Shown here: positions 2,147-3,599 of the stretch, piece after piece
Layout of the letters: every line of letters starts with the position of its first letter
How positions within the stretch are numbered: the stretch's first letter is position 1
Origin: a virus
Lineage: Duplodnaviria > Heunggongvirae > Uroviricota > Caudoviricetes
Virus record (IMG/VR): IMGVR_UViG_2713896777_000020
Strand: one strand, 5' to 3'
Length of the DNA: 8,593 nucleotides
Position numbers and translations under genes: made by a program
The notes under the pieces: model-generated
What the model saw: only the letters and a program-made list of their open reading frames with translations
What the model was told of the DNA's origin: nothing
Database searches by the model: none

Positions 2147-2171
2147 AAAAACAAAAACCCGCCGAAGCGGG
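2147..2171 (-). terminator. Rho-independent terminator downstream of hok
   Basis: Plus strand aaaacaaaaa-cccgc-cgaa-gcggg; on the minus strand this is a GC stem-loop followed by a T-run. Confidence 0.6.
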
Positions 2172-2313
2172 TTAAGTGCGGGTGCGTNNNNNNNNNNNNN
2201 NNNNNNNNNNNNNNNNNNNNNNNNNNNNNNNNNNNNNNNNNNNNNNNNNNNNNNNNNNNNNNNNNNAAACAGATGACGATCAGGGCGATTAACATCGCCT
2301 TTTGCTGCTTCAT
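2172..2313 (-). CDS. hokD: Hok-family membrane toxin, interrupted by the N-gap (3' end not determinable)
   Basis: Minus-strand 2313-2267 translates MKQQKAMLIALIVIC, matching the remembered N-terminus of HokD/RelF (Gef/HokC is MKQHKAMIVALIVIC). AAGGAG 9 nt upstream of the ATG. Paralog assignment rests on 15 residues plus Qin-like neighbours. Confidence 0.6.
2188..2266. other. assembly gap (79 N) inside the hok CDS
   Basis: Run of N characters. Confidence 0.99.
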
Positions 2314-2505
2314 AGCCTGCTTCTCCTTGACCTTTCGGTCCGTAAGAGGCAATCTATATGTGACGAGCATATAGGGGCCTCACTTCGATTTATAGTCGGG
2401 TGGGGCTTTTATCTATCTGCCGTTGGTGTTCATGCCCGAGGCAGATAGCCTCAAGCACCCGCAGCAATCCTACTTAACTCTGCCGTTACAGCAAACCGTT
2501 TTCGC

Positions 2506-2529
2506 CCGATATGGGAATTCCCATATCGG
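2506..2529. repeat. perfect 24-bp palindrome CCGATATGGGAATTCCCATATCGG
   Basis: Checked base by base; identical to its reverse complement; centred on GAATTC; lies between the moron terminator and the hok start. Confidence 0.9.
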
Positions 2530-2614
2530 AATGAATTCAGTTCACCTGGCGAGGCTTAGCGTACAATTTTTTCCGTTTTGTGAGCTGCCCCTACATGCCG
2601 CTGGCGCGGCATCC

Positions 2615-2645
2615 GGAAAAAGAATCCACGTCCTGAAGGACGAGG
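2615..2645 (-). terminator. candidate intrinsic terminator downstream of the moron CDS
   Basis: Minus strand: cctcgtcc-ttca-ggacgtgg (7 of 8 bp paired) then attcttttt, immediately after the stop at 2649-2651. Confidence 0.45.
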
Positions 2646-2648
2646 ATG

Positions 2649-3407
2649 TCAAGTGCCTTTCCTGGTCCAGCCATATTTTTTGAATGCAGGCGCCGCTTCA
2701 TCGGTTTGTAGCCATTCTGCAAATCGACGGGTTTCATCATTTGCATCCTGACGTACTGTAATGTTCATATCACGCCATATCACGTAGTCTGGCGCTATTT
2801 CCACGACATCACCAATTTCTGGATTACTGGCTGCCCAGTCAGCCCAGGTTATCCAGACATCTGCTCCAGGCTGATTCTCAAGAGCCTTACGTGCAGTTCC
2901 GCTATTGGGCGCATATAAAATAATATTTTTTCGGATTGCGGCGACAGTTTCTATATTCCCTTTACGTCCGGCAATATCTTCCCAGACGCCAGTGCCTGAT
3001 GTATTACTGGTACCACCACCATCATTAACAATTACGCCAATCCCAGGTCTGGTCAGGTCGTCAATACTCCGGATATTTTTAGGATTACCTTTCTTTACCA
3101 GTAAAATACTTTTTCGCAGATAAAGAGGCTGAATATCTTTTTCACTGAAGCTGTCTTTATGGTCCCGAATGATAGCCAGAGCAGATTGTTCTGATGCGCC
3201 AAACAAGATATCTGCATTTTTTTTGGCATCTTCATTCCATTTGTTCTGTGGGCCGTAATGAACGTTCACTATAATACCTGTTTTTTCGGCATAAAGTTTG
3301 GCTGCATCAAGCAAGGCTGTATGCGGGCCACCAGGACCATACAGATTGATATCAGCATAAGCAGCAGAAGACAGGAATATTAAAAAACCTGCCATTATGT
3401 TCCTCAT
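2649..3407 (-). CDS. secreted ModA-like (molybdate/tungstate-type) periplasmic binding protein; orphan moron
   Basis: Track ORF, 252 aa. ATG at 3407 with AAGGAG about 7 nt upstream. N-terminus MRNIMAGFLIFLSSAAYA looks like a Sec signal peptide (AYA then D). ADILFGASEQ resembles ModA ADLFISADQ and the C-terminal FKKYGWT resembles ModA FKRYGFT. Region is AT-rich relative to the flanking phage genes. Confidence 0.8.
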   Translation of the reverse strand: MRNIMAGFLIFLSSAAYADINLYGPGGPHTALLDAAKLYAEKTGIIVNVHYGPQNKWNEDAKKNADILFGASEQSALAIIRDHKDSFSEKDIQPLYLRKSILLVKKGNPKNIRSIDDLTRPGIGVIVNDGGGTSNTSGTGVWEDIAGRKGNIETVAAIRKNIILYAPNSGTARKALENQPGADVWITWADWAASNPEIGDVVEIAPDYVIWRDMNITVRQDANDETRRFAEWLQTDEAAPAFKKYGWTRKGT

Positions 3408-3571: not shown

Positions 3572-3599
3572 ATGTTGATTACATTTTTGTAATCAACAT
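3572..3599. repeat. inverted repeat, 12-bp perfect arms ATGTTGATTACA / TGTAATCAACAT around TTTT
   Basis: Checked base by base; lies in the AT-rich region about 165-190 bp upstream of the moron start codon. Confidence 0.85.

What the first reader, a model, noticed from the sequence alone, without database searches (positions are those of the whole stretch)
2506..2529. Perfect 24-bp palindrome CCGATATGGGAATTCCCATATCGG between the moron and hok
A 24-bp perfect palindrome is very unlikely by chance in 8.6 kb (about 4^-12 per position). It sits in the roughly 330-bp non-coding stretch that should contain the hok promoter and leader. It could be an operator for a dimeric regulator, a cruciform or RNA hairpin affecting hok mRNA, or a recombination scar marking the cassette boundary.
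Basis: seen in the sequence. Interest (0 to 1): 0.5.

Follow-up and report, generated by a model that had tools for sequence, protein, structure and literature searches.

The report
Orphan KilA-N/BstA gene palindrome beside hok
The 24-bp palindrome is real, has no evident link to hok, and is a stranded piece of a phage-defence gene (KilA-N/BstA-like) whose members across many bacterial phyla carry this palindrome in their coding sequence, so it may be a DNA decoy against that defence.

Summary
In detail: CCGATATGGGAATTCCCATATCGG is a perfect 24-bp palindrome at 2506-2529, between paa and hok in an E. coli O157:H7 PPompW-type prophage. It lies 46-69 nt upstream of the inferred hok mRNA start, so it is not part of hok RNA.

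The same 22-mer normally sits inside KilA-N genes, most of which carry a BstA-type C-terminal domain. There it encodes the helix-turn-helix turn (..S-x-DMGIPIS-E-L..). Homologues carry different perfect palindromes at this spot, with consensus CG-N5-GGAATTCC-N5'-CG. The arms co-vary, even at the synonymous third base of the Pro codon, and Bacteroidota genes read the same 22-mer in another frame. The constraint is therefore on the DNA, not the protein.

The window copy is an orphan. About 41 nt of such a gene (DMGIPISE*) survive, and the prophage has no KilA-N gene. Orphans also occur beside hok in about 730 of 5,426 E. coli genomes and as a 0/1/2-copy indel in virulent Dhillonvirus phages.

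My best reading is inferred, not shown: the palindrome is a duplex binding site for dimeric KilA-N/BstA-like proteins, analogous to the published anti-BstA (aba) self-immunity DNA, and is kept as a decoy. The main rival is an inert relic kept symmetric by template-switch mutation.

The parts
2506..2529 (.). Perfect 24-bp palindrome CCGATATGGGAATTCCCATATCGG. Its 22-bp core CGATATGGGAATTCCCATATCG is the unit shared with KilA-N/BstA-like genes and with other orphan copies.
   Evidence: presence and rarity; the same core elsewhere
2499..2545 (+). Remnant of a KilA-N/BstA-like gene. It reads ..F S P D M G I P I S E * on the + strand. The right flank GAATGAATTCAGTTCA matches GA(A/G)TTAATTCAATCA of intact genes. 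Homology with other hok-adjacent haplotypes ends at about 2545.
   Evidence: BLAST query 4-44 = window 2499-2539, 88% identity to KilA-N genes
2311..2460 (-). hok mRNA leader / sok region. Its 5' end at 2460 is taken as the hok transcription start.
   Evidence: Rfam RF01794, 103.9 bits, full-length match
2467..2495 (-). Inferred weak hok promoter: -35 TTTGCT at 2495-2490, a 17-nt spacer, and -10 TAGGAT at 2472-2467. The palindrome is 10 nt upstream of the -35 and is centred at -57.5.
   Evidence: Read from the sequence relative to the Rfam 5' end. The consensus scan did not call it, so this is inference only.
2158..2313 (-). hokD-like toxin CDS, partly N-masked in the window.
   Evidence: RefSeq annotation of the identical O157:H7 locus, mapped onto the window
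2649..3407 (-). paa, an AcfC-family adhesin gene. This is the moron upstream of the palindrome.
2619..2642 (-). Terminator-like hairpin CGTCCTTCAGGACG plus a T tract, just after paa. paa transcripts probably end here, about 90 nt before the palindrome.

Best explanation
Origin (well supported). The palindrome is an orphan copy of a conserved palindrome that normally lies inside the coding sequence of KilA-N-domain genes, most of which carry a BstA-type C-terminal domain. A gene of this kind sits divergently next to hok in related prophages. In the PPompW lineage it was deleted down to about 41 nt centred on the palindrome, and the paa cassette now abuts the remnant.

Mechanism (inferred, not shown). 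In the intact genes the palindrome encodes the end of helix A, the turn, and the start of helix B of the winged helix-turn-helix. I propose that it is also the duplex DNA site bound by a dimer of that same KilA-N domain. The invariant outer CG steps and the GGAATTCC centre would be read by the protein, and the N5 arms would set variant specificity. By analogy with the published anti-BstA (aba) element, many copies of the site on a replicating phage genome would neutralise the abortive-infection protein.

On this view an orphan copy lets a phage without the gene escape BstA-like proteins made by resident prophages. That would apply to PPompW on induction and to virulent Dhillonviruses. Its position next to hok is a historical accident, not a functional link.
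For: (1) The host gene is BstA-like. It matches PHROG 6287 'BstA abortive infection system' (E 2.7e-89, full length), PADLOC BstA (E 3e-21) and Pfam KilA-N. Its C-terminal domain is 32% identical to BstA of BTP1 (E 3e-16).

(2) The constraint is at the DNA level. In 100 diverse homologues the arms pair in 83% of cells. There are 203 double-sided changes against 86 +/- 13 in shuffles (0 of 500 shuffles reach the observed value). The covariation score is 0.35, against 0.05-0.08 when the partner columns are slid. The synonymous third base of the Pro codon pairs with the third base of the x2 codon in 99 of 100 sequences. Mirror-symmetric peptides such as DMGIPIS, DTGIPVS, VTGIPVT, SMGIPID and SAGIPAD follow the predicted rule. 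Bacteroidota genes read the same 22-mer in another frame, as RYGNSHI.

(3) The evidence points to duplex symmetry rather than an RNA helix. G.T wobble is not enriched: it makes up about 14% of non-Watson-Crick cells. The two free central third positions are always purine and pyrimidine: GGA or GGG, never GGY, and ATT or ATC, never ATA, in 35 of 35 unbiased sequences.

(4) Between enterobacterial gene variants that are 70-75% identical overall, the roughly 60 nt around the palindrome are 91-100% identical. This is the most conserved stretch of the gene.

(5) Orphans occur in phages that lack the gene. PPompW and Dhillonvirus Gluttony have no KilA-N homologue. In Dhillonviruses the 21-bp palindrome is present in 0, 1 or 2 copies. 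Hafnia phage Pocitis76 has one in its nin region. In E. coli, orphans (about 732 genomes) outnumber the gene (137 genomes), and they carry the exact variants of the E. coli genes.

(6) There is a precedent. aba is a short, DNA-based, variant-specific, copy-number-dependent immunity element inside bstA (PMC8585504).

(7) The predicted fold matches the Mbp1/PCG2 DNA-binding domain. The palindrome codons cover residues 58-65 at the helix A - turn - helix B junction. In PCG2 the wing glutamines read CG steps (PMC4333399), and the wing motif QGTW is conserved here.
Against: No binding or immunity has been tested.

The published aba of BTP1 is a different sequence. It is 63 bp with CCCGCC direct repeats and lies at the 5' start of bstA. 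BstA-BTP1 has neither the GIP motif nor the palindrome.

The palindrome follows the KilA-N domain rather than the BstA C-terminal domain. Nostoc-type and Bacteroidota-type proteins with other C-termini also have it. Whether those proteins, or even the E. coli one, are abortive-infection proteins is unknown.

Extra copies near the gene's own promoter are rare, 3 of 111.

Perfect arm symmetry could arise by mutation alone, through template switching at quasipalindromes.

My palindrome-based searches can only find gene fragments that contain the palindrome. 'The palindrome is always retained' is therefore partly an ascertainment effect.

A few hok-adjacent copies are decaying, with a 1-nt deletion or a loop change.
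Confidence: 0.45

Rival explanations
1. Inert relic. The palindrome is only a leftover of a decayed KilA-N/BstA-like gene and has no present function. Inside the genes, the symmetry is a mutational by-product. G-I-P codons seeded GGAATTCC, and template switching at quasipalindromes keeps re-symmetrising and extending the arms. The protein loop tolerates the resulting mirror-image residues.
For: The window copy still carries about 17 nt of non-palindromic gene sequence and an in-frame stop, as expected of a pseudogene fragment. Some hok-adjacent copies are decaying. Non-Watson-Crick cells show no wobble enrichment, which fits a DNA-copying process. Orphans elsewhere have grown into 30-36-bp perfect palindromes with unrelated outer arms, as template switching predicts. 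Template-switch correction of quasipalindromes is an established mutational mechanism (my own knowledge of work by Ripley and by Lovett and colleagues).
Against: The outer CG..CG and the central purine/pyrimidine third positions are conserved in sequence, not merely symmetric. The roughly 60-nt block around the palindrome is the most conserved part of the gene, including its non-palindromic flanks. The element was gained or lost as a precise 21-bp unit, in 0, 1 or 2 copies, in virulent phages that have no such gene. Among hok-adjacent haplotypes the 22-mer varies less than its immediate flanks, about 2 of 22 sites against about 8 of 27. That difference is only weakly significant.
Confidence: 0.33
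2. Regulatory site for hok. The palindrome is an operator or activator site, centred at -57.5, that controls the hok promoter.
For: The palindrome lies 10 nt upstream of the inferred -35 in haplotypes A-D. It is a perfect dyad of operator size.
Against: Many hok loci with the same promoter lack it, for example VT2-Sakai and most Stx2 phages. In haplotype E it lies 18 nt further away. The same sequence is found in phages and phyla that have no hok. The hok promoter assignment is itself only inferred.
Confidence: 0.06
3. RNA hairpin on read-through transcripts from paa or pR. It would act as a 3' stabiliser, an RNase III site, or an insulator that protects the hok 5' end.
For: The predicted RNA hairpin is stable. 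The 200-nt region folds with z = -4.3 and the palindrome forms a clean stem-loop.
Against: Neither strand has a U tract. A terminator-like hairpin already follows paa about 90 nt upstream. Family-wide covariation shows no G.U enrichment, and the constraint on the two central bases would leave only a 2-nt loop.
Confidence: 0.05
4. Recombination site or micro-mobile element. The palindrome is a crossover site or an insertion unit that shuffles phage modules.
For: Different cargo follows it in different prophages, and one haplotype is recombinant exactly across it. In Dhillonviruses it appears as a 54-bp unit made of the 21-bp palindrome plus a 33-bp duplication.
Against: No recombinase or nuclease gene is consistently nearby. 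KilA-N is the only protein family shared among the neighbourhoods. Copy number per genome is low. The recombinant haplotype is equally explained by ordinary homologous exchange in the shared 40 nt.
Confidence: 0.08

Closest known systems
aba (anti-BstA) self-immunity element of prophage BTP1 (Owen et al. 2021, PMC8585504)
   Same: Both are short DNA stretches inside the ORF of a BstA-family gene. aba acts as DNA and is specific to each protein variant. It needs many copies, and it protects any phage that carries it. The palindrome likewise varies between gene variants, and it occurs on phages that would benefit from such protection.
   Different: The sequence, architecture and position differ. 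aba is 63 bp with terminal CCCGCC direct repeats and spans the start codon. The element here is a 22-24-bp perfect dyad about 170-250 nt into the gene, in the KilA-N coding part. BstA-BTP1 lacks it. Function is untested here. Natural orphan copies were not reported for aba.
DNA sites embedded in the gene of the protein that binds them (lambda ori iterons inside gene O; lacO2 in lacZ and galOI in galE as intragenic operators)
   Same: A protein-binding DNA site lies within coding sequence, so the codons serve two purposes.
   Different: Here the site would be encoded by the very codons of the DNA-binding motif, so that site and reader change together. This has not been demonstrated. The comparison rests on my own knowledge of those systems.
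Quasipalindrome template-switch mutagenesis
   Same: It explains perfect arm symmetry, coordinated double changes and outward growth of palindromes without any selection.
   Different: It does not explain the conserved outer CG, the purine/pyrimidine centre, the conserved non-palindromic flanks, or precise gain of the unit in unrelated phages.
Orphan immunity determinants (orphan antitoxins, bacteriocin immunity genes, solitary methyltransferases)
   Same: The killing or defence gene has been lost while the protective part is retained.
   Different: Here the retained part would be a 22-bp DNA site, not a gene.
APSES/KilA-N winged helix-turn-helix bound to DNA (Mbp1, PCG2; PMC4333399)
   Same: The predicted fold of the carrier protein's N-terminal domain matches. 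The conserved wing Q-G-T-W aligns with the wing whose glutamines read CG steps.
   Different: The fungal sites are short ACGCGT boxes, not 22-bp dyads. The phage proteins have a 7-residue longer turn, and it is this turn that the palindrome encodes.

Membership tests
aba (anti-BstA) element | Lies within the bstA locus of the prophage it protects | tested here: not met
   The window copy is an orphan. PPompW has no KilA-N/BstA homologue (six-frame hmmsearch). The family-wide palindrome does lie inside BstA-like ORFs.
aba (anti-BstA) element | Sequence and architecture of the mapped aba: 63 bp, terminal CCCGCC direct repeats, spanning the start codon | tested here: not met
   There is no similarity. 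The palindrome is a dyad about 170 nt or more inside the gene, and BTP1 bstA has no such palindrome.
aba (anti-BstA) element | Suppresses the cognate BstA as DNA, at high copy number | not testable with these tools
   This needs plaque and induction assays. The only indirect hints are the 0/1/2-copy polymorphism in Dhillonviruses and the excess of orphans in E. coli.
aba (anti-BstA) element | Variant-specific (cognate) pairing with its protein | tested here: inconclusive
   The N5 arms differ between gene variants and co-vary with the encoded turn residues. E. coli orphans carry the E. coli gene variants. Functional specificity has not been shown.
BstA abortive-infection protein family (for the genes that carry the palindrome) | Homology to BstA over the C-terminal domain, plus an N-terminal KilA-N(-like) DNA-binding domain | tested here: met
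   PHROG 6287 E 2.7e-89; PADLOC BstA E 3e-21; Pfam KilA-N E 4e-27; BLASTP against BstA-BTP1 gives 32% identity and E 3e-16, in the C-terminal half only. Some palindrome-bearing KilA-N genes have other C-termini.
hok/sok locus component | Part of the hok mRNA or sok RNA, and conserved among hok loci | tested here: not met
   It lies upstream of the Rfam-defined 5' end. It is absent from many hok loci and its spacing varies.
Intrinsic (rho-independent) terminator | G+C-rich stem-loop followed by a U tract | tested here: not met
   Neither strand has a T run after the stem, and the scan did not call it.
Dispersed chromosomal repeat (REP/BIME/MITE-like) | Many copies per genome in unrelated intergenic sites | tested here: not met
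   There is one copy in the window. E. coli genomes give 1-6 BLAST places, with each site counted on both strands, and all are in prophage contexts.
Known RNA family | Match to an Rfam covariance model | tested here: not met
   No Rfam hit overlaps the palindrome in the window or in 18 other loci.

The most novel reading that the evidence does not exclude
Canonical KilA-N/BstA-like defence proteins may carry their own cognate DNA ligand inside the codons of their helix-turn-helix turn. The ligand would be the 22-24-bp dyad CG-N5-GGAATTCC-N5'-CG. Any change in an arm would then change both the site and the adjacent reading residues, which would generate new cognate protein-site pairs automatically. 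Phages that lack the gene (PPompW-type prophages, Dhillonviruses, a Hafnia lambdoid phage) would have captured the bare dyad as a DNA decoy against this defence. That would make it a natural, non-coding anti-defence element of only about 22 bp.
Probability: 0.3. Interest if true: 0.85.

Novelty: new variant of a known kind. Interest (0 to 1): 0.62.

Why it matters
If the reading is right, this would extend the single described case of DNA-based self-immunity in a prophage defence system (BstA-aba) to a much larger KilA-N family that spans many phyla.

It would give that family a defined, testable 22-bp site. It would also show that phages can evade an abortive-infection system by carrying a tiny non-coding decoy rather than an anti-defence protein.

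It would matter for phage therapy and host-range prediction, because Dhillonviruses differ by 0, 1 or 2 copies. It would also help in annotating the many 'KilA-N domain-containing' genes.

Even if the element turns out to be inert, it is an unusually clear example of a coding-sequence palindrome whose two arms evolve in concert across phyla and impose mirror-symmetric amino-acid changes.

For the hok locus itself the result is deflationary. The palindrome is a neighbour by history and is not part of hok/sok control.

Tried and rejected
- **Rfam:** scans of the window and of 18 other palindrome loci found nothing overlapping the palindrome.
- **Literature:** searching for the sequence itself found no relevant paper. 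Searching 'KilA-N' with 'palindrome' found nothing relevant either.
- **Promoter/terminator scan:** it found no terminator at the palindrome and no consensus promoter.
- **Partner gene:** I clustered all ORFs within 3 kb of non-hok copies to look for a consistently neighbouring recombinase, nuclease or regulator. Only the KilA-N gene itself recurs.
- **Operator pair:** I looked for a second copy in the gene's own promoter. It is rare, 3 of 111 genes.
- **Local binder:** I tested whether PPompW or a Dhillonvirus encodes the presumed KilA-N binding protein. Neither does.
- **Identity with aba:** I first recalled that the published aba element was a hairpin inside bstA. Reading the paper showed that this was wrong. 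aba is a different 63-bp sequence at the gene start, and BstA-BTP1 lacks the palindrome. I therefore dropped the claim 'it is aba'.
- **RNA-helix reading:** rejected because wobble pairs are not enriched and the centre is constrained.
- **Over-inclusion:** not every GGAATTCC palindrome is homologous. ATAAAAACGGGAATTCCCGTTTTTAT in L008 looks like an ordinary bidirectional terminator.
- **Cloning-linker artefact:** the central EcoRI site raised this possibility. I dismissed it because the sequence is present in hundreds of independent complete genomes.

Full report
**1. Observation**

Window 2506-2529 reads CCGATATGGGAATTCCCATATCGG. It is a perfect palindrome with 12-nt arms and no spacer. It is the longest palindrome in the window. 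Only 1 of 2000 first-order Markov simulations of the window reached 24 bp.

The window is identical to a lambdoid prophage of E. coli O157:H7, deposited as 'PPompW' phages. All relevant genes are on the minus strand: paa (AcfC-family adhesin, 2649-3407) and a hokD-like toxin gene (2158-2313, partly N-masked). The palindrome lies in the 335-nt gap between them.

**2. Relation to hok**

The Rfam hok/sok leader model (RF01794) matches 2460 to 2311 on the minus strand over its full length (103.9 bits). I therefore take about 2460 as the hok mRNA 5' end. The palindrome then spans -46 to -69.

A weak promoter can be read just upstream: TTTGCT, a 17-nt spacer, then TAGGAT. This is inference only, because the consensus scan did not call it. 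The palindrome is not part of hok RNA.

hok loci in VT2-Sakai and most Stx2 phages share the promoter region but diverge where the palindrome would begin. I then sampled hok loci without reference to the palindrome. Many alternative upstream sequences appear. Several palindrome-bearing haplotypes exist. In one group the palindrome lies 18 nt further from the promoter. These facts argue against a role in hok control.

Neither strand has a U tract after the stem. A terminator-like hairpin already follows paa at 2642-2629.

**3. Where else the sequence occurs**

A 55-nt query around the palindrome hit 877 of 5,426 complete E. coli genomes. In 732 of them the match covers at least 80% of the query, which identifies hok-adjacent copies.

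Unexpectedly, the bare 23-mer is also present at 100% identity in many virulent Dhillonvirus coliphages. It lies inside 'KilA-N domain-containing' genes of other prophages as well.

The hits fall into about 29 different flank contexts, in loci whose G+C content ranges from 27% to 66%. A scan for the 20-mer in one genome per species found 82 loci, where about 0.5 would be expected by chance. They come from Cyanobacteria, Bacteroidota, Chloroflexota, Patescibacteria, Spirochaetota, Bacillota, Verrucomicrobiota, Deinococcota and Alpha-, Beta- and Gammaproteobacteria. About half lie inside KilA-N genes, in frame as ..L-S-x-D-M-G-I-P-I-S-x-L.., about 16 codons before the conserved QGTWVHP.

**4. 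The constraint is on the DNA**

Four observations show this.

- In Bacteroidota KilA-N genes the same 22-mer sits at the homologous place but is read in another frame (..EERYGNSHIA..).
- I sampled homologues without conditioning on the arms, using a metagenome scan for GGAATTCC followed by QGTWVHP codons. The 99 unique sequences carry many different arm sequences. The arms are still Watson-Crick complementary at 83-99% of positions 1-7 beyond the centre. Complementarity falls to background by position 9-11. The consensus is CG-N5-GGAATTCC-N5'-CG.
- On 100 sequences the formal count gives 203 double-sided changes, against 86 +/- 13 in shuffles (0 of 500 reach the observed value). The covariation score is 0.35, against 0.05-0.08 for slid partners. 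The pair formed by the third base of the x2 codon and the synonymous third base of the Pro codon is complementary in 99 of 100 sequences. Protein selection cannot produce that.
- The symmetry shows through in the proteins as mirror peptides, exactly as the codon geometry predicts: DMGIPIS, DTGIPVS, DVGIPTS, VTGIPVT, SMGIPID, SAGIPAD and ATGIPVA. A second clade (QTGLPEQ and similar) has no palindrome.

**5. Duplex DNA or RNA helix?**

Non-Watson-Crick cells are mostly true mismatches. G.T makes up only about 14% of them, which is what chance gives.

In a sample not conditioned on the centre, the Gly codon is GGA or GGG and never GGC or GGT. The Ile codon is ATT or ATC and never ATA. This holds in 35 of 35 sequences. 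The two central 'free' bases therefore stay purine and pyrimidine, although they would lie in the loop of any hairpin.

Both results favour symmetry of the duplex, through either a dimeric protein site or a DNA-copying process, over an RNA stem-loop.

**6. What the carrier gene is**

The 257-aa E. coli protein has a Pfam KilA-N domain at residues 14-112. It matches PHROG 6287, 'BstA abortive infection system, replication inhibitor', over its full length (E 2.7e-89) and PADLOC BstA. Its C-terminal half is 32% identical to BstA of prophage BTP1 (E 3e-16).

An AlphaFold model (mean pLDDT 90.6) places helix A at residues 47-60, a turn at 61-63 (G-I-P), a short helix B at 64-67, and a beta-hairpin wing at 68-83. 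The N-terminal domain resembles the Mbp1 and PCG2 DNA-binding domains. The palindrome thus encodes the end of helix A, the turn and the start of helix B.

In the PCG2-DNA structure, helix A, helix B and the wing contact DNA, and the wing glutamines read the CGCG core (PMC4333399). The wing motif QGTW is nearly invariant in the phage proteins, and the palindrome has nearly invariant outer CG steps. This is suggestive only.

**7. Relation to the published aba element**

Owen et al. (PMC8585504) showed that a BstA-encoding prophage escapes its own abortive-infection protein through aba. aba is a short DNA element within bstA. It acts as DNA, works in trans only at high copy number, is specific to each BstA variant, and protects any phage engineered to carry it.

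I first recalled aba as a hairpin, and reading the paper corrected this. In BTP1 aba is a 63-bp sequence with CCCGCC direct repeats spanning the start codon. BstA-BTP1 has a divergent N-terminal domain with neither the GIP motif nor the palindrome. The aba elements of the other two tested homologues were not finely mapped.

The palindrome is therefore not the published aba. It is at most an analogous element in the canonical-KilA-N branch. The paper does not mention palindromes or inverted repeats. No paper in the library contains the sequence.

**8. The window copy is an orphan remnant**

On the + strand, 2499-2545 reads ..F-S-P-D-M-G-I-P-I-S-E-stop. The 17 nt after the palindrome (GAATGAATTCAGTTCA) still resemble GA(A/G)TTAATTCAATCA of intact genes.

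In a common prophage type (phage 666R9 and 34 IMG/VR loci) an intact bstA-like gene lies divergently about 350 nt from hok, in the same relative orientation as the remnant. Other hok-adjacent haplotypes keep about 65 nt of the gene (DMGIPISGLI*PVKAPL), about 41 nt (the window type and the FORC_043 type), or only the palindrome (L096). One haplotype is recombinant across the palindrome (L082).

A few copies are decaying, with a 1-nt deletion or a loop change. PPompW has no KilA-N homologue anywhere in its 44 kb.

**9. Orphans in other phages**

In Dhillonviruses the stop codon of the primase/helicase gene is followed by a 33-bp sequence. A unit made of the 21-bp palindrome plus a repeat of that 33-bp sequence is present 0 times (HK578, SO-1), once (Gluttony, SECphi18) or twice (PNS1). 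Gluttony has no KilA-N homologue.

Hafnia phage Pocitis76 carries an orphan in a 56-nt gap of its nin region: CGATATGGGAATTCCCATAACGGAAT.

In E. coli the gene is present in 137 genomes: 117 with the exact palindrome and 20 with a 78%-identical type. Relatives of that second type in IMG/VR carry GGGGATTCCC, and orphans of both variants exist.

**10. Further sign of constraint**

Between enterobacterial gene variants that are 70-75% identical overall, the windows covering the palindrome and about 20 nt on each side are 91-100% identical. This is the most conserved stretch of the gene. The block is about 60 nt long, similar to aba and to the longest orphan remnants.

**11. Interpretation**

The origin as a bstA-like gene remnant is well supported; I put it at about 0.85.

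For function, I favour a duplex binding site for a dimeric KilA-N domain that acts as an aba-like immunity or decoy element, at 0.45 for the whole statement. This reading accounts for several observations at once:

- conservation at the DNA level;
- the conserved centre and ends;
- variant-specific arms;
- conserved flanks;
- repeated capture of the bare element by phages that lack the gene.

It also has a direct experimental precedent.

The main rival, at about 0.33, is that the window copy is inert and that the symmetry in the genes is maintained by template switching at quasipalindromes. That mechanism is real and explains the symmetry. It does not explain the conserved sequence features or the precise gains in virulent phages.

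hok regulation, an RNA hairpin, and a recombination or mobile element each get less than 0.1.

**12. Caveats**

- Searches seeded with the palindrome cannot find gene fragments that lack it.
- Sequences in the covariation set are related by descent, so cell counts are not counts of independent events.
- The abortive-infection activity of the canonical-KilA-N branch is inferred from homology only.
- The hok promoter is inferred.
- Nothing here tests binding or immunity.

Noticed in passing
window 3572-3599: A second perfect inverted repeat, ATGTTGATTACA - 4 nt - TGTAATCAACAT, lies between paa and the frameshifted fimbrial gene.
   Followed up: no
window ~2188-2266 and ~985-1035: Runs of N mask part of the hok coding sequence and part of an upstream ORF. 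The hok toxin therefore cannot be read in full from the window.
   Followed up: no
window ~586-777 and ~1080-1228: Near-duplicate ORF pieces (..VPAQHHCAGTITVN(D/N)GF..VM..) suggest an internal tandem repeat in the DUF968/ydfU-like region.
   Followed up: no
L005 2480-2745 (Dhillonvirus Gluttony); L362, L363, L364: The intergenic region after the primase/helicase gene holds repeats of TGCGCGCATTGGTTGCC and a run of GCGGGACA iteron-like repeats. The SO-1 record calls it 'region B, direct, inverted and palindromic repeats'. The palindrome unit varies between 0, 1 and 2 copies here.
   Followed up: partly
L224 7740-7775 and L235 7662-7697: A Nomurabacteria contig and a Saccharibacteria contig share an identical 36-bp perfect palindrome, actcccggGATATGGGAATTCCCATATCccgggagt, in homologous non-KilA-N flanks.
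   Followed up: no
L060 13856-13920; L203 2609-3070: A 435-aa ORF in a 66% G+C locus has two adjacent GIP motifs (DMGIPIS..VTGIPVS). A Calothrix KilA-N gene has two further GGAATTCC palindromes 156 and 288 nt upstream of its start.
   Followed up: partly
L677 1495-1530 (Hafnia phage Pocitis76): An orphan, CGATATGGGAATTCCCATAACGGAAT (the DMGIPIT-type variant), lies in a 56-nt intergenic gap of the nin region of a lambdoid Hafnia phage.
   Followed up: partly
L082 5440-5530: This hok-upstream haplotype is the window type to the left of the palindrome and the FORC_043 type to its right. It is a recombinant with the crossover in or next to the palindrome.
   Followed up: partly
L008 5709-5734: ATAAAAACGGGAATTCCCGTTTTTAT lies 335 nt from a copy of the 22-mer and looks like an ordinary bidirectional terminator. 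Not every GGAATTCC palindrome should be counted as the same element.
   Followed up: partly
L001 7548-8421 (O157:H7 PV15-279, same prophage): In this strain an IS1203 (IS3-family) element interrupts the replication gene region of the prophage, which points to ongoing decay of PPompW-type prophages.
   Followed up: no
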